Source: Bacteroidota bacterium (GTDB lineage Bacteria; Bacteroidota; Ignavibacteria; Kapaibacteriales; Kapaibacteriaceae). From it: a DNA stretch of 44,079 bases. How positions within the stretch are numbered: the stretch's first letter is position 1; each line of letters begins with the position of its first letter. The notes beneath the pieces are model-generated. The model worked only from the letters and a program-made list of their open reading frames with translations. It ran no database searches and had not been told where the DNA came from. The DNA lies in assembly GCA_041157865.1 (NCBI GenBank), contig JBEBCJ010000174.1:1-44079 (forward strand), given 5' to 3'. Both the position numbers and the translations under genes were made by a program. This document shows positions 26,447 to 36,965 of the stretch, piece after piece.

Positions 26447-29400
26447 ATGGAGAATACCATGCGTCGAATCCATACTCTTATACTCATATTGTTTACGATG
26501 GTGTTGATTGCATCAGCACAAAACCCATCGTCTGTAACGCTGCGATTCCCCAACGGCGGCGAGACGTTCCGTCCTGGCTCGACACAGGAGCTGCGCTGGG
26601 ACACAGCAGGCACGTTCCGTGCCCGTTGGAGGTTCCTGTTCGCGACATCTATGACGGGTCCGTGGACAGCGCTTACGGGTCCATCAAACGTTCTTGATTC
26701 CGGTGCCACGCGTGGTCAGTCCGTACCAACATCAGGTGGATGGCGCGTACCAAACGTTCCTACATCAAGTGGCTATATCAAGATGGAGTTGATCGCAGAC
26801 CCAACGGTGTTTGACATCAACGACAATCCGTTTACAATTGCCACACCAGAGACGATTGTTCCAGACTCGATCATCACCGGTGAAATCACACGGAACATCC
26901 ACCTGCGGGCAACCAAGATCTATGGTCTACAAGGCTATGTATATGTCAATGCAGGTGCAACGCTTACCATAGACCCGGGAACAATCATTGTTGGCGATGT
27001 TCCAGGAAACAACTCAGCTTTGGTTATCAACCGTGGTGCCAAGATTGTTGCTCAGGGAACTGCTGAAAATCCTATCGTCTTCACATCACGTGCAGCAGCC
27101 GGACAGCGCGCCCGCGGCGACTGGGGTGGCATATTGATCTGCGGTAAGGCTCGCGTCAATCAGCCAGCAGGTCAAGCAGCTCTCGAAGGGGGCGTTGCAG
27201 ATCTTACAGCCGGAGGTAAGGGCTGGTATGGTGGCACTGACGACGACGACAACAGTGGCATTCTGAAGTATGTGCGAATCGAGTTCGCTGGTATCGCAAC
27301 ACAACCAAACTCGGAGCTCAACTCGCTCACGATGGGTGGTGTTGGCCGCGGCACAACGATCGAGAACGTACAAGTATCGTATGGTAACGATGATGGTTTC
27401 GAGTGGTTTGGCGGCACTGTTAACGGCCGTTATCTGATTTCCTACGGCATTCTTGACGATGACTTTGATTGCGACAACGGTTTCTCTGGACGCGTGCAAT
27501 TCGGTCTTGTTAAGCGCTTCCGCACTGTTGCCGACGTGTCCACATCCCAGGCATTTGAAATCGACAACGACGCGTCGGGTTCATTTAATGCACCGCGCAC
27601 GCAGCCGCTCTTCTCAAACTTCACGGTTGTTGGTCCACTGCAAGACACATCCTGGACACCAGGTTCTGGCACAAATCAATACAGTTCCCGCTACGGTGCG
27701 GCTGCTCAGATTCGTCGTGCCTCGCGTGCAAGCATCGTGAACACGGTGTTTGTTGGTTGGCCGCGTGGATTCGAGATCGCACAGGCACCAACAATGGTTG
27801 CTGCCAACAACGACTCATTACTTGTTCGCAGCAACAGCTGGTATGGCATCAAGGGAGCCACGCTCACACTTGCAAGCGGAACACCGCCAGCAGGAATGGA
27901 TGCCAACTGGCTTGCTAAGGCTGGCTTTAATAACGAAGTCGATAAGGGTAATCCCAATGCAGCATTCCTTGTAAATGCATGGGTAACAGATGGCTCGTTT
28001 AATGCACGTCCACTAGTCGTTGCACCATACCTGAGCACAGCAAGCTTTGCCAATGGCTCGGCTACTGTAAGCCTTGCAGACCCATACTTCCAGCAGGTAT
28101 CCTATCGTGGTGCATTCCCAGCAGATGGTCCAGCATGGGATGCTCAGTGGGCAGAATACGATCCAATCAACAAGGAGTATCGTGCACAACCACTTGTTCG
28201 TCTAACCTCGCCAGGATCGAAGACTGGTGAGAAGTTCATACAAGGCGAAAAGATCACCATCTCTTGGGATACATCAGGTGCAGCCGGCAACAGCTACCGC
28301 TTCCAGTTCGGTGCGTCTGCTGATGGTCCTTGGCAGGACATTCCTAATGCCTCGAATGTACTCGACGCCGGTGCAGGCCGCGGCACACTTGCCGGTGGCT
28401 TCACAGCACCAAACGTTGTAACGAAGACAGGCTACGTGCGTATGTCGCTTGTAAACGACCCCGCAACCTTCGACATTTCCGACAACCCAATCGAGATCGC
28501 AGCTCCAGTGCCGAAAGATCCTGCAGTTAAGCTTCTTGAGCCGGGTACAAACAATAAGGCATTCCGTGTTGGACAGTCGGTAGACATCTCATGGGACACC
28601 ACAAACACATTCCGCCAGCGCTGGCGCTTTGAGTTTGGTAAGAGTGCAACCGGACCTTGGTCCACTCTGCCAGGCCTTGGTAACGTTCTTGACAGTGCAA
28701 CCCGCCGTGGCCGTATCGCAGGTGCCGTTGTATTCCGTCCAGCAGACTTGACGCAAACAGGATACATCCGTATGGTGCTGCTGAGCGACACAACCAAAAC
28801 AGACGTTAACGATAATCCATTCACGATCTCTGCTCCGGCTCCAATTGTTGTGGACTCGATCCTTGAAGGCGAGATCACGAAGAACGTTAAGCTGAGCAAC
28901 ACAAAGATCTACGGACTTAAAGGATACGTCTACGTAAACGATGGAGCAACGCTCGAAGTTGAAAAGGGAACGATCGTTGTGGGCGACGAGCCAGGCAACA
29001 ACTCAGCACTCGTTATCAACCGTGGTGGCAAGATCATCGCAAACGGCACAGCAAAGGACCCAATCATCTTTACGAGCCGTGCAGTTCCTGGACAGCGCGC
29101 TCGTGGCGACTGGGGTGGTATTCTGATCTGCGGTAAAGCACGCATCAATCAACCAGCAGGGCAAGCAGCTCTTGAAGGGGGCGTAGCAGATCAAACACCA
29201 GGCGGTAAGGGCTGGTATGGCGGTACAGACAACGAGGACAACAGCGGTATCCTCAAGTACGTGCGTATAGAATTCGCAGGTATTGCAACACAACCAAACT
29301 CAGAGCTCAACTCTCTAACTATGGGTGGCGTAGGTCGTGGAACAACCATCGAGAACGTTCAGGTATCATATGGTAACGACGACGGCTTTGAATGGTTTGG

Positions 29401-30454
29401 TGGCACAGTGAATGCCAAGTACCTGATCTCGACAGGAATCCTTGATGATGACTTTGATACCGACAATGGCTATAGCGGTAAGGTACAATTTGCCGTAGCC
29501 CAGCGCTTCCGCACAGTAGCCGATGTGTCGACATCGCAGGTCTTTGAGTCGGACAATGACGCACAATCATCATACAACCAGCCACTAACTTCGGCTGTAT
29601 TCTCGAACGTCACAGGTATCGGTCCTGTCCAGGACACAAGCTGGACTCCAGGCTCGGGAGCAAATCAGTACAGCTCACGCTTTGGTGCTGCAGCGCAGAT
29701 TCGCCGAAACTCACGTCAGTCAATTCATAACTCCGTGTTTATTGGATGGCCACGTGGCTTCGAGTTTGCTCAAGTGCAGACATTGAATGCAGCCATGGCA
29801 GATAGCATCGAGATTCGTAACAACGCATGGTATGGTGTGAAGGGTGCTGTAATGACACTTGCCGGAGGAACACCTCCTGCAGGCATGGATATTAACTGGA
29901 TCGCAAAGCCGGCATACGGCAATGTGGTTGACAAATCGTCGCCAAACCTTGCGATGATCGAAAACGCCTTTGCAACAAATGCTGAATTCAATCCAGCGAT
30001 CAAGGAAATGTCTCCACTTGCTGCTGGTGCTGCATTCGCAGGTAAGTCAGAAGACTCGTTCTTCGAGCGCGTGGCTTTCCGTGGCGCGTTTGGCCTACAG
30101 CGTTGGGACGCAGAATGGTCGGAGTATGACCCTGTCAACAAGGAATACAAAGCCAAGTCTCCTGTGAGCGTAGACGAAGAGACACTTGTAGAAAGCGTCA
30201 TTGCTTCTGCCTATCCTAACCCTTCATTTACAGCATCCACAGTACGCTATGTTCTTGGTGAAGACGACGTCGTAAGCGTCCGCCTTGCAACTGCAACCGG
30301 AGAAGTTGTCTCCGCATTCTTTACCAATCAAGCACAGCGTGCCGGTACATACGAGTTTAACCTCGTTACCGCAGACCTTGCTTCTGGTATCTACTATCTG
30401 ACGATCACAGGCGTTCGTGGCACGGTAATCCTCCCAATATCCGTGGCACACTAA
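26447..30454 (+). CDS. 1335-aa T9SS cargo protein made of an internally duplicated unknown module (beta-helix-like) plus three small Ig-like domains
   Basis: Signal peptide ...LILILFTMVLIASAQ, with an alternative ATG at 26459. Two modules of about 440 aa each carry GDWGGILICGKAR and DDGFEWFGGTVN motifs. The T9SS CTD is AYPNPSFTASTVRYVL...VSVRL...AGTYEFNLVTADLASGIYYLTITG. The gene starts 22 bp after the TonB-dependent receptor stop. Confidence 0.85.
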   Translation: MENTMRRIHTLILILFTMVLIASAQNPSSVTLRFPNGGETFRPGSTQELRWDTAGTFRARWRFLFATSMTGPWTALTGPSNVLDSGATRGQSVPTSGGWRVPNVPTSSGYIKMELIADPTVFDINDNPFTIATPETIVPDSIITGEITRNIHLRATKIYGLQGYVYVNAGATLTIDPGTIIVGDVPGNNSALVINRGAKIVAQGTAENPIVFTSRAAAGQRARGDWGGILICGKARVNQPAGQAALEGGVADLTAGGKGWYGGTDDDDNSGILKYVRIEFAGIATQPNSELNSLTMGGVGRGTTIENVQVSYGNDDGFEWFGGTVNGRYLISYGILDDDFDCDNGFSGRVQFGLVKRFRTVADVSTSQAFEIDNDASGSFNAPRTQPLFSNFTVVGPLQDTSWTPGSGTNQYSSRYGAAAQIRRASRASIVNTVFVGWPRGFEIAQAPTMVAANNDSLLVRSNSWYGIKGATLTLASGTPPAGMDANWLAKAGFNNEVDKGNPNAAFLVNAWVTDGSFNARPLVVAPYLSTASFANGSATVSLADPYFQQVSYRGAFPADGPAWDAQWAEYDPINKEYRAQPLVRLTSPGSKTGEKFIQGEKITISWDTSGAAGNSYRFQFGASADGPWQDIPNASNVLDAGAGRGTLAGGFTAPNVVTKTGYVRMSLVNDPATFDISDNPIEIAAPVPKDPAVKLLEPGTNNKAFRVGQSVDISWDTTNTFRQRWRFEFGKSATGPWSTLPGLGNVLDSATRRGRIAGAVVFRPADLTQTGYIRMVLLSDTTKTDVNDNPFTISAPAPIVVDSILEGEITKNVKLSNTKIYGLKGYVYVNDGATLEVEKGTIVVGDEPGNNSALVINRGGKIIANGTAKDPIIFTSRAVPGQRARGDWGGILICGKARINQPAGQAALEGGVADQTPGGKGWYGGTDNEDNSGILKYVRIEFAGIATQPNSELNSLTMGGVGRGTTIENVQVSYGNDDGFEWFGGTVNAKYLISTGILDDDFDTDNGYSGKVQFAVAQRFRTVADVSTSQVFESDNDAQSSYNQPLTSAVFSNVTGIGPVQDTSWTPGSGANQYSSRFGAAAQIRRNSRQSIHNSVFIGWPRGFEFAQVQTLNAAMADSIEIRNNAWYGVKGAVMTLAGGTPPAGMDINWIAKPAYGNVVDKSSPNLAMIENAFATNAEFNPAIKEMSPLAAGAAFAGKSEDSFFERVAFRGAFGLQRWDAEWSEYDPVNKEYKAKSPVSVDEETLVESVIASAYPNPSFTASTVRYVLGEDDVVSVRLATATGEVVSAFFTNQAQRAGTYEFNLVTADLASGIYYLTITGVRGTVILPISVAH
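26855..28192 (+). repeat. Intragenic duplicated module, copy 1 (about 446 codons)
   Basis: IVPDSIITGEITRNIHL...EYDPINKEYRAQP aligns collinearly with copy 2, with an offset of about 1989 nt at the conserved core. Confidence 0.9.
28844..30163 (+). repeat. Intragenic duplicated module, copy 2 (about 440 codons)
   Basis: IVVDSILEGEITKNVKL...EYDPVNKEYKAKSP. It contains a 58-aa run identical to copy 1 (29240-29413 versus 27251-27424). Confidence 0.9.
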
Positions 30455-32225: not shown

Positions 32226-32297
32226 TGCACCAAAGCAATAGACCGAATTTTTCTTCGTCAGATACAGGCACAGTTTGTTCTACAGGAGTTGTACTAC

Positions 32298-33860
32298 ATG
32301 TCTCGACGATCTCTTTTCACAGCGATCTCCCTTATCGGTATAGGGGTAGTCGTGGGGGTCATCCTGATGACCTCGATTTCATCAAATGCTCTCGAGCAGC
32401 TCTTTGCGAGTGACGTAACATTGGGCGCCGGCAATCCACCGGCACCTGCGCCGCCCGCAGTAAAGTTGCTGAACGACCAGTTTGCGAACGTTGCTTCTGC
32501 AGTAACGCAATCAGTGGTCTCGATCTCGGTGAAGATCGATCAAAAGAAGTCAAATCCCGGACTTGAAGGCATGGAAGAGTTCTTCCGTCGCTTCGGGCCG
32601 TTTATGTCTCCCGATGGTAACGGACAAGACGAGCAAATGCCGGAGCGTGATGCAAGTGGTTCGGGGGTAATCCTGACGGCCGATGGATACGTGGTTACGA
32701 ACAATCACGTTGTTGAGTCGGCAAAGGAAGGTGGAATAACAGTAACCACAACTGACAACAAGGAATACAAGGCACGTTTAGTCGGGCGCGATCCGCTTAC
32801 AGACTTGGCCGTACTCAAGATCGACGGACGGTTTGCTCCGGCCCACCTGGCCCAGCGTTCGGACATACGAATAGGCGAGTGGGTAGTCGCGGTTGGTAGC
32901 CCATTGGGCCTTCAATCAACGGTAACAACAGGAATCATATCTGCCCTCGGTCGTGGAATTGGCATAGTAGGCACCAATGAGCTTACAAACGAACGTAATC
33001 GATATGCGATCGAAAACTTCATTCAAACAGATGCGGCCATTAACCCTGGGAATTCTGGAGGGGGCTTATTCAACCTTAACGGAAGCCTCATTGGTATCAA
33101 TACTGCGATAGCTTCCCGTTCGGGCGTCAACGCTGGTTATGGATTTGCGATCCCCGTTGATATGATGCGCAGCGTGGTTCTTGATATCATCGATGACGGC
33201 AAAATCGAGCGCGGATATATAGGGGTCGAGATCACCAGTGTTGACGAAGCATCAGCCAAGGCTGTTGGACTGCCCAAGGTAGCCGGTGTGAATGTGAACA
33301 AAGTGGTTAAGGGCGGGGCTGCAGAGGCAGCCGGCATTGAAGCTGGGGATGTGATCCTTGATGTAGACGGAAGATCTGTAAAGAGCTCGAATGAGTTGCA
33401 GAGCGAGATCGTGCTCCGCAGGGCGGGCGACAAGGTAAACCTCAAAATCTGGCGCGATGGGCGAGAGATTACCAAGACTGTTCGCCTGAAAGCACCAAAT
33501 GATAATGATGTAGCTGCAAATGACGCACGATCAGGCGATGAAGAAGCCTTCGACGCAAATGAGCCCGTTGCCTTTAAGGACCTCGGCTTTTCTGTTACGC
33601 CCCTTTCAGGTGACCAAAAGTCATCCTTTGGTGTAAGTCAGGGTGTGTTCGTTACTAAGGTAGAACGATCTGGACGCATGGCATATCGTGGTTTGCGTTC
33701 GAACACGGTGATCCTCAAGGCCGATGGTAAAGAGATTACATCACCGTCGCAACTGCGCAAGATCATCTCGGCTAAGAGTCCGGGCGATGGAGTGATGTTT
33801 GTTGTCAAGAACGGCGATGGATCAAAGCAGGCCATATCAGTTCAGATGCCCGAATCATGA
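32298..33860 (+). CDS. htrA: HtrA/DegP-family periplasmic serine protease with two PDZ domains
   Basis: Catalytic triad contexts TNNHVV (His), DLAVLKI (Asp) and GNSGGGLFN (Ser), followed by two PDZ-like segments (GVNVNKVVKGGAAEAAGIEAGDVILDVDG..., GVFVTKVERSGRMAYRGLRSNTVILKADG...). The ATG at 32298 is preceded by AGGAG at 32284-32288. Confidence 0.9.
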   Translation: MSRRSLFTAISLIGIGVVVGVILMTSISSNALEQLFASDVTLGAGNPPAPAPPAVKLLNDQFANVASAVTQSVVSISVKIDQKKSNPGLEGMEEFFRRFGPFMSPDGNGQDEQMPERDASGSGVILTADGYVVTNNHVVESAKEGGITVTTTDNKEYKARLVGRDPLTDLAVLKIDGRFAPAHLAQRSDIRIGEWVVAVGSPLGLQSTVTTGIISALGRGIGIVGTNELTNERNRYAIENFIQTDAAINPGNSGGGLFNLNGSLIGINTAIASRSGVNAGYGFAIPVDMMRSVVLDIIDDGKIERGYIGVEITSVDEASAKAVGLPKVAGVNVNKVVKGGAAEAAGIEAGDVILDVDGRSVKSSNELQSEIVLRRAGDKVNLKIWRDGREITKTVRLKAPNDNDVAANDARSGDEEAFDANEPVAFKDLGFSVTPLSGDQKSSFGVSQGVFVTKVERSGRMAYRGLRSNTVILKADGKEITSPSQLRKIISAKSPGDGVMFVVKNGDGSKQAISVQMPES

Positions 33861-33880: not shown

Positions 33881-34624
33881 ATGAATACCACTTCGAAATT
33901 CCTAAGCGTCGTTATCATGTTGGTGGTAGCGACGCTTTGTTCTTACGGCCAGGCCATGTTCTTTGGTCCGATGGTCACAACAACAATGAGCACCGCCGTT
34001 TCCACTGATGTGGCAGCCTACGGAACGCCCACACGCTATTCTGCCGGCGTGCAGTTTGCCCGCAGAACTTCCACAGCGGCAGAGTACATGATTACCCTGC
34101 ATCATCGCATTGAGAATGGCGGGTATGTAACGGAGTATACAAAGCCATCGGGTGGCTTGGTTGGCAAGCTTAACGTTGTTGACGTTCCCGGAGCGAGTCC
34201 GGTTATCATTACCACGCTCGAATCCACCTCTATTGAGGCTGGTGCAGGGATACGTTTCCCCGTGCTCGACCTCGATACGATAGGTACACGCATGCTGTTC
34301 CAGTTTGGCATCAACGTGGATCGTATACTTTCGCTGACGCAGGTGGCAGACTATTCACGAATCCCCGAGGCAGACAGGGGGAGTAATCCACTGCAGTCTA
34401 CCGTTATGTTTGATGGTCAAACAGGGTTTGGTGGACAGTTTGGTGTAGCATTATCCGCCCCGGCTGGCGACGGACGATTTGTGATTGAGCTTACGTACAA
34501 TGTACGACAGCCCGTAACGATCGCCTTTCCTGTAGGAACCATAAGTGGCGCCTCAGAACAGAACATTGGATGGCTCGTTGGCAGAGGCCTCCGCCTTGGT
34601 GCCTCATACCAGTTCAAAATGTAG
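33881..34624 (+). CDS. Hypothetical outer-membrane beta-barrel-like protein (247 aa)
   Basis: Signal peptide MNTTSKFLSVVIMLVVATLCSYGQA, alternating beta-strand-like pattern, and a C-terminal ...GLRLGASYQFKM. It lies 20 nt downstream of htrA. Confidence 0.55.
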   Translation: MNTTSKFLSVVIMLVVATLCSYGQAMFFGPMVTTTMSTAVSTDVAAYGTPTRYSAGVQFARRTSTAAEYMITLHHRIENGGYVTEYTKPSGGLVGKLNVVDVPGASPVIITTLESTSIEAGAGIRFPVLDLDTIGTRMLFQFGINVDRILSLTQVADYSRIPEADRGSNPLQSTVMFDGQTGFGGQFGVALSAPAGDGRFVIELTYNVRQPVTIAFPVGTISGASEQNIGWLVGRGLRLGASYQFKM

Positions 34625-34631
34625 GGGGCTT

Positions 34632-36830
34632 CTATATCGCGATATGTGCGCCAAGCTCCAGCGTCCGCTTCGTCGGAATACCGAAGTATGATGCCGGTGT
34701 GCGCGAGTTGCGATGCAGGAACACAAAGATCTCCTTGCGCCACTTTGCCATGCTCTTGCCATCCCGAATCGAGATCGTCTCGTGACCAAGAACAAAAATC
34801 GCGTCCGTTACGTCTACCATCACATCGAGCTCAGGTAGAAACTTTAGATCGGCCATGATATCAAGCTGATCCATAAAGCCGTAGCGCACATTGACTGTGT
34901 AGATGCTTGTGTGCCCCTTTATCTCTTTGACGTCGTACCGTGCGCGTGGATCGCCCACGCCGCGCTCTCGGGCATTTGCAGTAATCTCTACCGAGAGAAA
35001 CACCAAACACTCGTGTCGAACTCTGTTGTAGGTTAGGTTGCTCACAAGCGCTCTTGGTGCATTACCTATTGTTTGCGTCATATAGATCGCAGTACCTGCA
35101 ACATGCTCGTGCCACCTGTTGGGCTCGTTAAGCACATCAGTAAGGGGCTTGCTGGTCCGCTCGATGGCTTGCTGCAGAAGCCTTCTGCCTGTGTGCCATG
35201 TTACCATGACCATAAATACGACGCATGCAAGAACGATTGGTACATATCCACCATGGAAGAACTTGAGTCCGTTTGCCGAAACAAATGCAACATCGATAAC
35301 AAGGAACAATATGCTGGCTGATGTTGCTGTAAGCTGACTCCAGCCGAGGATGTTTCTCATTGCCGACCATGCTAAGACGGTGGTAATGACCATTGTTGAT
35401 GTAACGGCGATACCATATGCTGCTGCAAGGGCGCCTGATGACGAAAACGTAACAACAAGCATAACGCATAGGATGAAGAGCAGCCAATTGATCGTTGGGA
35501 TATAGATCTGTCCGCGCTCTTCGCTCGAGGTATGCATAACCTTCAAACGCGGGATGTAACCAAGCTGCAGTGCCTGCCATGTAAGAGAGAATGCGCCGGA
35601 GATCACAGCTTGTGAGGCAATGATGGTCGCTCCAGTTGAGATGATGACTAAGGGCAGAACGCCCCAGGACGGTACCATGTGGAAGAACGGGTTTGCTACT
35701 GTTGCAGGGTTCGAGCCCTCGCGCAGCAGCAGAGCCCCTTGTCCGAAGTATTGAAGAAGCAACGCAGGATAGGCAAAGTAGAACCAGCCGCGCATGATCG
35801 GCGTGCGGCCGAAATGTCCCATGTCTGCATAGAGGGCCTCGCCACCGGTAACAACAAGGAACACGCTGCCGAGAACAGCAAAGCCAAGGAATCCATGTTG
35901 TACGAAGAATGTAAGACCATAGTATGGGTTGATAGCCCATAAAATATCCGGCGTCTGGCTGATGCTTACTACACCGAGTATGGCAAGTAAGCTAAACCAT
36001 CCCATCATGAACGGACCAAAGATCTTGCCAACACTGGCAGTTCCGTACTTCTGAATAAAGAACAGTCCAAACAGGATCACCAGCGTGATCGGCACGATGA
36101 AAGGATTTGAGTTTGGTGTGTCGATAATCTTTGTTTCTTCTTCTCCGCTTCGGTTGATAACGGTAAACGTTAGATCGTCTCCGCGATTTGAAGAAATAAT
36201 GCGTGTTAGCGAGTCTGGAGCATAGATGTCTTTACCATTGCATTTCACAATGAGCATGCCTTTGTGCATCTCATTCTCGGCCATCTTGCCCTCTGGGTCG
36301 ATGCTGTCAATCAACACGCCATAGGTGTATCCATAGGCCGAGAGTTGATTAGCTGTAGGGGTCGTGGTCTGATACCCGAGGTCGTTCGACGGAGCCGCAA
36401 CGGTAAGTCCCTCGATTGCGGAAAGCACCGAAATGGCCGGAGTGATCACCCCATCGCCATAGAGCAGTGCAGAACCGAATAGACCCATCACGATGATGGC
36501 TGTGCGTCTGATCAACTTGCTCTTGAACTTGGCTACAAGCTCCATCAGCGCCAGAATGCCGCCTTCGCCCTTGTTGCCGAAGCGCATAATGATGGCGAGG
36601 TACTTTACACCGATGATCAGTGTTAGTGACCAGAAGATCAATGAAAGAATTCCCTTGACCTCCAACTCGCCGTGCGGCAGCCCATAATGGGGAGAGAAAC
36701 ATTCTTTGAGGGCGTACAGGGGGCTTGTACCGATATCACCGAAGACAACGCCAACCGCTGCAACGGTAAGTGCCATCAGGCGCGACTTTGAGGTGGTGTT
36801 TGCGCCTGAATCAGCATGTGCTTGGTCCAT
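34632..36830 (-). CDS. kup: KUP-family potassium transporter carrying an inserted PDZ-like domain
   Basis: VGVVFGDIGTSPLYALKEC, GEGGILALM, GDGVITPAISVLSAIEGL, ITGGEALYADMGHFG, IASQAVISGAFSLT and AAAYGIAVT are collinear with E. coli Kup. I placed the start at the ATG at 36830 (MDQAHADSG...); the track ORF extends to 36944. Confidence 0.9.
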   Translation of the reverse strand: MDQAHADSGANTTSKSRLMALTVAAVGVVFGDIGTSPLYALKECFSPHYGLPHGELEVKGILSLIFWSLTLIIGVKYLAIIMRFGNKGEGGILALMELVAKFKSKLIRRTAIIVMGLFGSALLYGDGVITPAISVLSAIEGLTVAAPSNDLGYQTTTPTANQLSAYGYTYGVLIDSIDPEGKMAENEMHKGMLIVKCNGKDIYAPDSLTRIISSNRGDDLTFTVINRSGEEETKIIDTPNSNPFIVPITLVILFGLFFIQKYGTASVGKIFGPFMMGWFSLLAILGVVSISQTPDILWAINPYYGLTFFVQHGFLGFAVLGSVFLVVTGGEALYADMGHFGRTPIMRGWFYFAYPALLLQYFGQGALLLREGSNPATVANPFFHMVPSWGVLPLVIISTGATIIASQAVISGAFSLTWQALQLGYIPRLKVMHTSSEERGQIYIPTINWLLFILCVMLVVTFSSSGALAAAYGIAVTSTMVITTVLAWSAMRNILGWSQLTATSASILFLVIDVAFVSANGLKFFHGGYVPIVLACVVFMVMVTWHTGRRLLQQAIERTSKPLTDVLNEPNRWHEHVAGTAIYMTQTIGNAPRALVSNLTYNRVRHECLVFLSVEITANARERGVGDPRARYDVKEIKGHTSIYTVNVRYGFMDQLDIMADLKFLPELDVMVDVTDAIFVLGHETISIRDGKSMAKWRKEIFVFLHRNSRTPASYFGIPTKRTLELGAHIAI
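36102..36389 (-). other. In-frame insertion of about 96 codons encoding a PDZ-like domain inside kup
   Basis: The insertion lies between AIEGLTVAAP and FIVPITLVILFGLFFIQKYGT. In E. coli Kup these two segments are separated by only QLDTW. The insert contains GVLIDSIDPEGKMAENEMHKGMLIVKCNGKDIYAPDSLTRIISSNRGDDLTFTVINRSGEEETKII. Confidence 0.7.
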
Positions 36831-36965
36831 TGAGGGACCTTTAACTTCTGAAACAACAGTACCCCATGTACTTGGGGCCACCAAACTTACGGACCAAGGG
36901 CACTCATTCTGTAATTTTGTTGTTCTATCGACGCAACACAACATCCATCAACAACGGCAGATACA

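What the first reader, a model, noticed from the sequence alone, without database searches (positions are those of the whole stretch)
36102..36389. PDZ-like domain inserted into the transmembrane core of a KUP-family K+ transporter
In E. coli Kup (from memory) the sequence runs [35 protein letters not shown]. Here the same two conserved helices (AIEGLTVAAP and FIVPITLVILFGLFFIQKYGT) are separated by about 96 in-frame residues. The rest of the protein is collinear with Kup. The insert has the hallmark PDZ layout: GVLIDSIDPEGKMAENEMHKGMLIVKCNGKDIYAPDSLTRIISSNRGDDLTFTVINRSGEEETKII. For comparison, HtrA-type PDZ domains read G-V-x-V-x-x-V-x-x-x-x-P-A-x-x-A-G-L-x-x-G-D-V-I-x-x-V-N-G-x-x-V...G-D-x-V-x-L-x-V-x-R-x-G. 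There are no stops or frameshifts and no flanking repeats, so this is a domain fusion and not a mobile-element scar. A peptide-binding module grafted onto a short loop of an APC-fold transporter could gate transport or tether a partner. I am not aware of a described KUP/HAK/KT member with this feature. Which side of the membrane the loop faces cannot be decided from the sequence alone.
Basis: partly seen in the sequence, partly recalled or inferred. Interest (0 to 1): 0.7.

Follow-up and report, generated by a model that had tools for sequence, protein, structure and literature searches.

The report
Kup potassium transporter with periplasmic PDZ
A potassium-uptake transporter in a small group of uncultured Ignavibacteria/Kapabacteria carries a complete protein-binding (PDZ) domain in one of its outward-facing loops, probably copied from the quality-control protease gene two genes away; no such arrangement turned up in the literature I searched, and its function is untested.

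Summary
Window 36102-36389 (- strand) encodes residues 148-243 of a 732-aa Kup transporter (34632-36830). The segment is in frame and is absent from every insert-less homologue examined.

It is a real PDZ domain:
- A profile of the four known inserts hits 1016 proteins in a 1.8-billion-protein library.
- The AlphaFold model (pLDDT 89) matches only PDZ structures among its top 50 hits, 49 of them from HtrA-family proteases (TM ~0.8).
- It aligns end to end, with one indel, to the C-terminal PDZ2 of the Do-family protease encoded about 2.2 kb away (32% identity, E 6e-17).
- Pfam's own PDZ models miss it (14.5 bits against a cut-off of 27).

The four insert-bearing Kups are monophyletic. Their sister lineage has the same gene order and an empty site. 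dN/dS on the insert is 0.037, against 0.033 for the rest of the gene. Topology places the insert in the periplasm, in the TM3-TM4 loop beside the extracellular gate. Net charge changed from +6 in the parent domain to between -3 and -6.

Only four species genomes in the GTDB set carry it, and no paper found describes it. The function is inferred, not shown: most likely a partner- or ligand-binding regulatory cap. This is a new variant of a known transporter, of moderate interest.

The parts
34632..36830 (-). kup gene, 732 aa counted from Met39 of the ORF (the mechanical ORF extends upstream to 36944)
   Evidence: ORF list. Orthologue starts in the alignment. Pfam K_trans 577.9 bits and K_trans_C 112.5 bits. 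AF2 model pLDDT 83.9 with KimA as the best PDB match.
36390..36830 (-). N-terminal part of the transporter: TM1 (including the GDIGTSPLY motif), TM2, a cytoplasmic amphipathic helix and the long TM3 (residues 1-147)
   Evidence: AF2 helices H15-44, H55-83, H92-100 and H106-145. Invariant columns of A3.
36102..36389 (-). Inserted HtrA-type PDZ domain (residues 148-243), in the periplasmic TM3-TM4 loop
   Evidence: Exact coordinates. Profile hits to PDZ proteins. End-to-end alignment to the neighbouring protease's PDZ2. AF2 pLDDT 89.1 and Foldseek matches to HtrA-family PDZ structures, TM ~0.8. dN/dS 0.037.
36372..36383 (-). D150-L151-G152-Y153, the x-Phi-G-Phi loop. It corresponds to the PDZ carboxylate-binding loop. 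L, G and Y are invariant in all four inserts.
   Evidence: Invariant columns L4, G5, Y6 in A2. Aligned to KDLGF of the protease PDZ2. The assignment as the carboxylate-binding loop rests on established knowledge of PDZ domains.
35151..36101 (-). TM4-TM12 of the transporter (residues 244 to about 560)
   Evidence: AF2 helices H245-262 through H529-559. Pfam K_trans second stretch.
34632..35096 (-). C-terminal cytoplasmic domain (K_trans_C), followed by the stop codon
   Evidence: Pfam PF22776 112.5 bits, ORF residues 617-770. Alpha/beta domain in the AF2 model. The cytoplasmic location follows KimA (PMC6994465).
32289..33860 (+). Do-family (HtrA/DegP/DegQ-type) serine protease, Trypsin-PDZ1-PDZ2, convergent with kup
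   Evidence: ORF. Pfam Trypsin_2 118 bits and PDZ_2 91.6 bits in two stretches. Source names of its orthologues.
33573..33857 (+). C-terminal PDZ2 of the protease (residues 429-523), the closest relative of the insert and its candidate donor
   Evidence: BLASTP 32% identity over 93 residues, E 6e-17. Insert-HMM single-domain score 49.2 bits, against 13 bits for PDZ1.
33881..34624 (+). Conserved 247-aa protein with an N-terminal signal-like hydrophobic segment and no Pfam family, lying between the protease gene and kup. It is part of the conserved neighbourhood and is not specific to insert-bearing lineages.

Best explanation
SHOWN. The gene is a KUP-family K+ transporter. Its loop between TM3 and TM4 carries a complete, folded HtrA-type PDZ domain of 96 residues. 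The domain is a diverged copy of the C-terminal PDZ2 of the Kapabacteria/Ignavibacteria Do-family periplasmic protease. The gene for that protease lies two genes away, about 2.2 kb off and in inverted orientation, and that adjacency is older than the insertion. The insert was gained once, in the ancestor of a small clade (four species genomes in the GTDB set). It has since been held under purifying selection as strong as on the rest of the transporter.

INFERRED.
(a) The domain faces the periplasm. It is tied by linkers of about 4-8 residues to the outer ends of TM3 and TM4, next to the extracellular gate formed by TM1b, TM3, TM6a and TM10.
(b) After the copy was inserted it diverged quickly to about 31% identity and lost positive charge (+6 to between -3 and -6; no Lys or Arg in the window's first 34 insert residues). 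This fits the positive-inside rule for a translocated loop.
(c) Mechanism, my commitment: the PDZ acts as a periplasmic partner- or ligand-binding cap. It would bind either a C-terminal peptide through the retained L-G-Y loop and groove, or the neighbouring protease through PDZ-PDZ contacts of the kind PDZ2 makes in DegP/DegQ cages. Its occupancy or position would then modulate opening of the outer gate. That would link K+/H+ uptake to the state of the cell envelope, or tether a partner at the transporter.

My confidence by step: PDZ identity above 0.95; descent from Do-family PDZ2 about 0.85; periplasmic location about 0.85; the donor being the genome's own neighbouring gene about 0.5; the regulatory or tethering mechanism about 0.35.
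For: Homology: the profile of four inserts gives 1016 hits at E<=1e-3 in 1.84e9 representative proteins, and all 10 hits sampled are Pfam PDZ proteins. The PDB profile hits are HtrA/DegQ PDZ domains (best E 1.4e-5). NCBIfam gives weak DegS and DegP hits on the same residues.

Fold: the insert-only AF2 model has pLDDT 89.1 and pTM 0.82. The Foldseek top 50 are all PDZ domains, 49 from HtrA-family proteases and one RseP PDZ2, with TMq 0.73-0.83 for the HtrA-family matches and probability 1.00.

Origin: the insert aligns to PDZ2 residues 431-523, the exact C-terminal end of the protease, at 32% identity with one gap, E 6e-17. The insert-HMM single-domain score is 45-58 bits on PDZ2 of most protease orthologues at least 68% identical to the window's (a few score 36-43), 31-51 bits at 56-67% identity, and 10-28 bits at 55% or below. 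PDZ1 typically scores 5-15 bits (maximum 22). The best single domain among the 150 listed library hits is 46.5 bits, on P0178, a 189-aa PDZ1-partial plus PDZ2 fragment that looks like an HtrA C-terminus. No other relative is encoded in the window.

Single gain: the insert-bearing Kups are monophyletic in 100% of bootstraps, and sister to the insert-less P0004+P0005 in 96%. The P0004 locus has the same gene order and an empty site. The order kup / 247-aa gene / protease / Ppx also holds in a 67%-identical insert-less relative.

Selection: window against L001 gives 40.3 synonymous and 10.7 non-synonymous differences in the insert, omega 0.037, compared with 0.033 for the rest of the gene.

Topology: the AF2 model has 12 TM helices and a C-terminal alpha/beta domain. 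KimA has 12 TM helices, a LeuT fold, a cytoplasmic C-terminal domain, and an outer gate formed by TM1b, 3, 6a and 10 (PMC6994465). Lys and Arg cluster in the TM2-3 and TM8-9 loops and are absent from the short odd-to-even loops.

Charge. Independent assemblies.
Against: No experiment or complex model bears on the function.

Pfam PDZ models do not reach their thresholds on the insert.

The donor lineage cannot be resolved. In the NJ tree the insert clade is sister to the genome's own protease PDZ2 in only 16% of bootstraps. Lineage-diagnostic columns split 3 to 2. Some protease PDZ2s from related lineages score slightly higher than the neighbour's (57.6 against 49.2 bits).

Synonymous sites between the insert and PDZ2 are saturated (31% identity at third codon positions), so no DNA-level trace of the duplication remains.

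Residues lining the presumed groove (strand 1 and the long helix) vary between the four lineages. This is not what one expects for a strictly conserved ligand.

In DegP/DegQ, PDZ2 is mainly an oligomerisation module and not a peptide binder (established knowledge). The charge reversal argues against simple retention of the parental interface.
Confidence: 0.5

Rival explanations
1. Electrostatic or structural role without a ligand. The acidic PDZ (net -3 to -6) sits at the mouth of the transporter and serves as a cation-attracting vestibule, a stabilising cap, or a periplasmic dimer contact. It would raise local K+ or stabilise the outward-facing state, and its binding groove would be irrelevant.
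For: Net charge changed from +6 in the parental PDZ2 to between -3 and -6 in all four inserts. Eight acidic positions are invariant among the inserts. Groove-lining positions vary between lineages. KimA protomers approach each other on the extracellular side (PMC6994465). Purifying selection is equally compatible with a structural role.
Against: The loss of positive charge is also what the positive-inside rule predicts for any translocated loop, so it need not reflect a cation-attracting function. The L-G-Y loop is invariant. There is no model of the domain's position relative to the pore. The many insert-less relatives evidently manage with a loop of 3-4 residues.
Confidence: 0.2
2. Tolerated passenger. 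The PDZ was inserted by chance into a permissive surface loop. It is kept only because a misfolded or deleted version would damage the transporter, and it adds no function of its own.
For: The feature is rare: four of 185,579 species genomes and three JGI metagenome loci. The closest relatives lack it and keep the same neighbourhood. No partner gene is specific to insert-bearing lineages. The N- and C-termini of a PDZ lie close together, which makes it an easy domain to insert (established knowledge).
Against: Omega is 0.037 across the insert, as low as in the transporter itself, at synonymous divergence of roughly 1 substitution per site (near saturation). The insert has been retained in all four lineages, out to 73% Kup identity, with no indel other than relative to the parent. 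The fold is confidently predicted. Selection against misfolding alone rarely holds 56 of 96 positions invariant, although the lineages are close.
Confidence: 0.15
3. The PDZ came from a foreign or unsampled PDZ protein by horizontal transfer, not from the genome's own neighbouring protease gene. This is a rival only for the origin step.
For: Identity to any known PDZ2 is only 22-37%. The highest scores are on protease PDZ2s of related lineages, not the neighbour's. Tree placement is unresolved. The GC content of the insert is somewhat lower than that of the rest of the gene (0.469 against 0.517).
Against: Every top-scoring relative belongs to the same orthologous protease family of the same bacterial group, and scores fall with phylogenetic distance. 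No closer donor exists among the 1.84e9 representatives. The candidate donor has sat within about 2.5 kb since before the insertion. The copy spans exactly the terminal domain of that gene up to its stop codon.
Confidence: 0.3
4. Artefact: an assembly chimera, or an intein or mobile-element remnant.
For: None beyond the prior likelihood of such artefacts in metagenome data.
Against: The same architecture is found in independent assemblies from ENA, JGI, Logan and NCBI MAGs, on contigs up to 880 kb. The reading frame is intact and under purifying selection. No repeats flank the junctions. The sequence is a PDZ domain, not an intein or a transposase.
Confidence: 0.01

Closest known systems
Kup / KimA (KUP/HAK/KT family, Pfam PF02705 + PF22776; KimA structures 6S3K, 8B70)
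   Same: [quoted passage not shown] It presumably works the same way, by K+/H+ symport.
   Different: It carries a 96-residue folded domain where the insert-less homologues aligned here have a TM3-TM4 loop of 3-4 residues. It falls below NCBIfam's Kup equivalog cut-offs (622.9 against 883; 514.3 against 539.6).
PDZ2 of Do-family periplasmic proteases (DegP/DegQ/HtrA), here the gene at window 32289-33860
   Same: Homologous from first to last residue with one indel, the same fold, a retained x-L-G-aromatic loop, and the same cell compartment.
   Different: About 31% identity and reversed net charge. It is embedded in a transporter loop instead of ending a soluble protease. In DegP/DegQ, PDZ2 mediates contacts between trimers that build the cage (established knowledge). 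Whether any such contact survives here is unknown.
RseP / site-2 protease PDZ tandem
   Same: This is the closest architectural analogue: PDZ domains inserted in a periplasmic loop between transmembrane helices of a polytopic inner-membrane protein, placed over the functional centre, where they control access (established knowledge). RseP PDZ domains appear among the weaker sequence and fold hits.
   Different: RseP is an intramembrane metalloprotease, not a transporter. It has two PDZ domains, they are ancient and family-wide, and they are not derived from HtrA PDZ2.
DegS PDZ sensor
   Same: It is a model for how an HtrA-type periplasmic PDZ can switch an attached module when C-terminal peptides of unassembled outer-membrane proteins bind (established knowledge). 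DegS is among the hits.
   Different: In DegS the regulated module is a protease domain in the same soluble part of the protein. No ligand is known here.
Elaborated extracellular loops of other LeuT/APC-fold carriers (EL2 of SLC6 transporters; extracellular caps of the cation-chloride cotransporters KCC/NKCC)
   Same: These show that extracellular loops of this fold, including TM3-TM4 (EL2), can carry large structured elements next to the outer gate (established knowledge). CCC structures are among the full-length fold hits.
   Different: Those elements are lineage-specific loop elaborations. They are not a recruited, independently folding interaction domain with an identifiable donor gene.

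Membership tests
KUP/HAK/KT K+ transporters | Pfam K_trans (PF02705) above the gathering score | tested here: met
   577.9 bits against 24.8, in two stretches split by the insert.
KUP/HAK/KT K+ transporters | C-terminal K_trans_C domain (PF22776) | tested here: met
   112.5 bits against 24.8.
KUP/HAK/KT K+ transporters | 12-TM LeuT/APC fold resembling KimA | tested here: met
   AF2 pLDDT 83.9 with 12 TM helices. The top Foldseek hits are KimA 8B70, 8B71 and 6S3K, followed by other APC carriers.
KUP/HAK/KT K+ transporters | Family-invariant residues retained (for example GDIGTSPLY in TM1) | tested here: met
   The invariant columns of the 72-sequence alignment include the window protein.
KUP/HAK/KT K+ transporters | NCBIfam Kup equivalog cut-offs (NF008015, TIGR00794) | tested here: not met
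   622.9 against 883, and 514.3 against 539.6. This is a naming threshold. The match is split by the insert and the lineage is distant from E. coli.
KUP/HAK/KT K+ transporters | K+ uptake activity | not testable with these tools
   Needs complementation of a kdp kup trk mutant.
PDZ domain (HtrA type) | Pfam PDZ model above the gathering score | tested here: not met
   PDZ_2 gives E 0.043 and 14.5 bits against 27. The precomputed Pfam annotation of P0001-P0003 lists no PDZ.
PDZ domain (HtrA type) | Significant sequence homology to bona fide PDZ domains | tested here: met
   E 6e-17 to the neighbouring protease's PDZ2. 1016 library hits, and all those sampled are PDZ proteins. PDB hits to HtrA-family PDZ domains.
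PDZ domain (HtrA type) | PDZ fold | tested here: met
   AF2 pLDDT 89.1. The top 50 Foldseek hits are all PDZ domains, 49 of them from HtrA-family proteases, TMq about 0.8 and rmsd about 2-3 A.
PDZ domain (HtrA type) | x-Phi-G-Phi carboxylate-binding loop | tested here: met
   D-L-G-Y, with L, G and Y invariant in the four inserts and aligned to KDLGF of PDZ2.
PDZ domain (HtrA type) | Binds a peptide or protein partner | not testable with these tools
   No binding assay was possible and no complex prediction was available.
Derived from Do-family protease PDZ2 | Closer to PDZ2 than to PDZ1 or to any other PDZ family | tested here: met
   45-58 bits on PDZ2 of close orthologues, against typically 5-15 bits (maximum 22) on PDZ1. 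The best single-domain score on any other listed protein is 37.5 bits or less, apart from a PDZ fragment that appears to be an HtrA C-terminus (46.5 bits).
Derived from Do-family protease PDZ2 | The donor is the genome's own neighbouring gene | tested here: inconclusive
   16% bootstrap support. Diagnostic columns split 3 to 2. Proximity and the age of the adjacency favour it.
RseP-like 'PDZ in a periplasmic loop of a polytopic membrane protein' | PDZ located between TM helices on the periplasmic side | tested here: met
   Topology inferred from the AF2 model, the KimA structure and Lys/Arg counts. This is an architectural analogy only and does not imply homology of the host protein.

The most novel reading that the evidence does not exclude
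The periplasmic PDZ is a sensor that couples envelope protein-folding status to K+/H+ uptake. It would detect either the C-termini of unassembled outer-membrane proteins or direct docking of the neighbouring Do-family protease. This would be the first extracytoplasmic regulatory domain known in the KUP family, whose known regulation (c-di-AMP acting on the C-terminal domain of KimA) is cytoplasmic. It would also be a documented case of a transporter gaining a regulatory module by copying a domain from a gene 2 kb away.
Probability: 0.2. Interest if true: 0.75.

Novelty: new variant of a known kind. Interest (0 to 1): 0.5.

Why it matters
If the domain is functional, it adds a mode of control on the outer face of KUP transporters. 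Their known regulation, such as c-di-AMP acting on KimA, is on the cytoplasmic side. It would also be a rare bacterial case of an interaction domain placed in an extracellular loop of a LeuT-fold secondary carrier.

Whatever the function, this is an unusually clean natural example of domain insertion. The likely donor family lies in the same locus. An orthologous empty site exists in the sister lineage. The inserted copy then diverged rapidly and lost positive charge, as the positive-inside rule predicts, and afterwards came under strong purifying selection.

The loop is a proven permissive site for engineering KUP transporters. The case also shows that Pfam-based domain-architecture catalogues can miss such fusions, because the PDZ scores below threshold.

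Tried and rejected
- Pfam PDZ models on the isolated insert scored below threshold. They were not used as evidence for or against.
- A word-index search of the 5.8-billion-protein collection with the insert profile returned nothing, not even the known insert-bearing Kups. This is a sensitivity limit of that tool and tells us nothing.
- The 50%-identity representative library did not return the Kup-PDZ proteins themselves, presumably because their cluster representative lacks the insert. It therefore cannot be used to survey other Kups for insertions.
- The first bootstrap tree with Biopython timed out. The re-implemented NJ bootstrap could not place the insert within the protease PDZ2 tree. 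Counting lineage-diagnostic columns was also indecisive.
- I looked for a gene present only in insert-bearing loci as a candidate partner and found none. The 247-aa neighbour is also present, at full length, in the empty-site lineage, where the gene caller had truncated it to 171 aa.
- I looked for flanking direct or inverted repeats and mobile-element signatures at the junctions and found none.
- Codon-aligned DNA identity between the insert and PDZ2 is 49% overall and 31% at third positions, which is saturated.
- Literature searches for a Kup-PDZ fusion or a PDZ inserted in a bacterial transporter found nothing relevant. A survey of 7,852 microbial PDZ proteins lists 12 families, none of them a transporter (PMC6411480).
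- Misassembly, an intein or mobile-element scar, and a cytoplasmic location were considered and rejected for the reasons given under the rival explanations.
Full report
OBSERVATION

The region lies in an ORF on the minus strand, 34632..36944. Orthologues start at its Met39, giving a 732-aa protein from 34632..36830. Pfam assigns K_trans (577.9 bits, in two stretches) and K_trans_C (112.5 bits). NCBIfam's Kup models match strongly but fall below their equivalog cut-offs.

I aligned the protein with 12 and then with 71 homologues. It is collinear with ordinary Kups of about 630 aa, apart from one block of about 92 extra residues between '...EGLTVAAPS' and 'FIVPITLVILFGLFFIQKYGT'. The frame is open, and no direct or inverted repeats flank the junctions.

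The same insert is present in three other protein clusters: P0001 at 94%, P0002 at 89% and P0003 at 73% identity. These come from independent ENA, JGI, Logan and NCBI assemblies, on contigs up to 880 kb. It is therefore not an assembly artefact.

IS IT A PDZ DOMAIN?

Pfam's PDZ models alone are inconclusive. PDZ_2 gives E 0.043 and 14.5 bits against a cut-off of 27. The precomputed Pfam annotation of the orthologues shows no PDZ. Four other lines of evidence are decisive.

1. A profile of the four inserts searched against PDB sequences returns almost only PDZ domains, led by HtrA/DegQ/DegP (best E 1.4e-5).
2. The same profile, scanned with HMMER over 1.84 billion representative proteins, finds 1016 proteins at E<=1e-3. 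All ten that I sampled are multi-PDZ or HtrA proteins by Pfam.
3. BLASTP against the protease encoded at 32289-33860 aligns insert residues 3-94 with protease residues 431-523, its C-terminal PDZ2. Identity is 32%, positives 56%, with one gap, E 6e-17.
4. An AlphaFold2 model of the insert, built on an alignment with protease PDZ2 sequences, has pLDDT 89.1 and pTM 0.82, with the strand and helix order of an HtrA-type PDZ. Its top 50 Foldseek matches in the PDB are all PDZ domains: 49 from HtrA, DegP, DegQ, DegS, HtrA1-3, MucD or AlgW, and one RseP PDZ2. TMq is 0.73-0.83 for the HtrA-family matches, with probability 1.00.

In the full-length model (pLDDT 83.9) the insert adopts the same secondary structure, with pLDDT between the 60s and the high 80s. 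The D-L-G-Y motif at the start of the insert corresponds to the PDZ carboxylate-binding loop (x-Phi-G-Phi). Its L, G and Y are invariant in the four lineages.

WHERE DID IT COME FROM?

In the window, and in all related loci, the gene order is IF2-NusA-RimP-acyl-CoA dehydrogenase | kup | 247-aa protein | Do-family protease (Trypsin-PDZ1-PDZ2) | Ppx. kup and the protease gene are convergent. The PDZ2-coding end of the protease gene lies about 2.2 kb from the insertion site.

The insert aligns to PDZ2 from its first strand to the protease's last residue before the stop codon, with a single one-residue indel.

I scored single domains with an HMM of the four inserts:
- The PDZ2 of the window's own protease and of its closest orthologues scores 45-51 bits. 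PDZ1 of the same proteins scores about 10-13 bits.
- Among the 150 listed hits from the 1.84-billion-protein library, the best other single domain scores 46.5 bits. It is on P0178, a 189-aa fragment (partial PDZ1 plus PDZ2) that looks like an HtrA C-terminus. The next best scores 37.5 bits.
- Across 120 protease orthologues the PDZ2 score tracks relatedness. It is 45-58 bits for most of those at least 68% identical to the window protease (a few score 36-43), 31-51 bits at 56-67% identity, and 10-28 bits at 55% or below.
- Nothing else in the window is related to the insert.

The insert is therefore a derivative of the PDZ2 of this Kapabacteria/Ignavibacteria protease family.

Which lineage donated it cannot be resolved. 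NJ bootstrapping places the long insert branch next to the genome's own protease PDZ2 in only 16% of replicates. Lineage-diagnostic columns split 3 to 2. Some related lineages' PDZ2s score a little higher than the neighbour's. Third codon positions are saturated.

The local gene is the parsimonious donor because the adjacency predates the insertion. It is found in the insert-less sister lineage (with the 247-aa gene confirmed at full length) and in a 67%-identical insert-less relative.

WHEN, AND UNDER WHAT SELECTION?

A tree of the Kup proteins with the insert columns removed makes the four insert-bearing proteins monophyletic in 100% of bootstraps. They are sister to the insert-less P0004+P0005 in 96%. 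A single gain is the simplest history, and the syntenic P0004 locus is an orthologous empty site.

Between the window and L001, the insert shows 40.3 synonymous and 10.7 non-synonymous differences. Omega is 0.037, essentially the same as for the rest of the gene (0.033). The domain is therefore maintained by selection.

The insert is only about 31% identical to PDZ2, whereas the PDZ2s of these same lineages are roughly 85-90% identical to one another by eye. This implies a burst of change after insertion.

Part of that change is a charge reversal. PDZ2 has a net charge of +6, and the inserts have -3 to -6. In the window sequence there is no Lys or Arg in the first 34 residues after TM3, where the parent has four (sequences). 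I read this as adaptation to being a translocated internal loop, following the positive-inside rule. That is an inference.

WHICH SIDE OF THE MEMBRANE?

The AF2 model has 12 TM helices followed by an alpha/beta domain. The best structural matches are the KimA structures. KimA has 12 TM helices, a LeuT fold and a cytoplasmic C-terminal domain. Its extracellular side is sealed by TM1b, 3, 6a and 10 (PMC6994465).

With the C-terminus inside, TM3 runs from inside to outside, so the TM3-TM4 loop is outside. Lys and Arg counts agree: 4 in the TM2-3 loop, 3 in the TM8-9 loop and none in the short odd-to-even loops. A neighbouring gene in related loci carries a weak Por_Secre_tail match, a T9SS signal typical of this diderm group. 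The parent domain is itself periplasmic.

The PDZ is therefore periplasmic. It is tied by linkers of about 4-8 residues to the outer ends of TM3 and TM4, beside the outer gate. It is not in the membrane core.

HOW IT PROBABLY WORKS

Nothing here measures function. Three things point to a working interaction module at the outer mouth of the carrier: strong constraint, the retained L-G-Y loop, and the rigid attachment next to the gate.

The closest analogies are these:
- The RseP PDZ tandem, which sits in a periplasmic loop of a polytopic membrane protein and controls access to its active centre.
- The DegS PDZ, where peptide binding switches an attached module.
- The parental PDZ2 itself, which in DegP/DegQ makes PDZ-PDZ contacts between trimers.

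These roles are established knowledge and were not tested here.

I commit to a partner- or ligand-binding regulatory cap that modulates opening of the outer gate or tethers a partner such as the neighbouring protease. My confidence is about 0.35.

The rivals are a ligand-independent acidic vestibule, cap or dimer contact (0.2) and a tolerated passenger (0.15). Groove-lining positions vary among the four lineages and the charge has reversed. Both points count against simple retention of the parental interface.

COMPARISON AND NOVELTY

The host is a member of the KUP family by every structural and profile test. The exception is NCBIfam's equivalog naming cut-offs. The insert is an HtrA-type PDZ by homology and by fold, though not by Pfam threshold.

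Among the insert-less homologues examined, none has a long TM3-TM4 loop. Only 4 of 185,579 GTDB species genomes (all Ignavibacteria-labelled MAGs) and 3 JGI metagenome loci carry the insert.

Literature searches found no Kup-PDZ fusion and no PDZ inserted in a bacterial transporter. A survey of 7,852 microbial PDZ proteins lists no transporter family (PMC6411480).

I rate this a new variant of a known kind. It is a known transporter and a known domain in a combination and position that turned up in none of the literature I searched. Its evolutionary source is traceable and its function is unknown.

VERDICT

Interest is moderate (0.5). It would be higher if a regulatory link between envelope status and K+ uptake were demonstrated.

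Noticed in passing
L008 6001-7977 (empty site) compared with window 33573-33590 and L008 protease PDZ2 start: In the insert-less sister lineage the TM3-TM4 loop reads APS-FKD-VVLPIT (TCA TTC AAA GAC). The protease PDZ2 begins [A/S]-FKD-LGF (TCC TTT AAA GAC in L008). This is a possible microhomology at the 5' junction of the insertion, or a coincidence. P0005 has FEQ at that position and more distant Kups have LHP or LHT.
   Followed up: partly
window 36102-36389 compared with 33573-33857: Net charge of the PDZ changed from +6 (protease PDZ2) to -6 (window insert) and to between -3 and -4 in the other three inserts. The first 34 insert residues in the window contain no Lys or Arg.
   Followed up: partly
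window 36831-36944: The mechanical ORF starts 38 codons upstream of the start used by all orthologues (MDQAH...). The upstream extension is probably not translated.
   Followed up: partly
window 33881-34624 (+): A 247-aa protein with an N-terminal signal-like hydrophobic segment and no Pfam match, ending ...ASYQFKM. It is conserved between kup and the protease gene in every related locus, including insert-less ones. The gene caller truncated it to 171 aa in L008. It may be an outer-membrane or periplasmic protein.
   Followed up: partly
window 26447-30454 (+): A 1335-aa secreted protein that appears by eye to be built from two near-identical halves of about 650 aa. Orthologues carry Beta_helix_4 and a weak Por_Secre_tail (T9SS) match. 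This is a large internal duplication.
   Followed up: no
P0001-P0003 (database annotation): The precomputed Pfam annotation of the insert-bearing Kups lists only K_trans and K_trans_C, so architecture databases would not flag this fusion. The word-index search with the insert profile returned no hits at all, not even these proteins.
   Followed up: yes
window 32289-33860 (+): The protease ORF begins at a TTG. Orthologues are 520-521 aa, so the true start is probably the ATG three codons downstream (MSRRS...).
   Followed up: no
L018 3891-4943: In a more distant insert-less relative, a DinB-like gene and a HicA-toxin pair sit between the acyl-CoA dehydrogenase gene and kup. This is the only break in an otherwise conserved gene order.
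   Followed up: no
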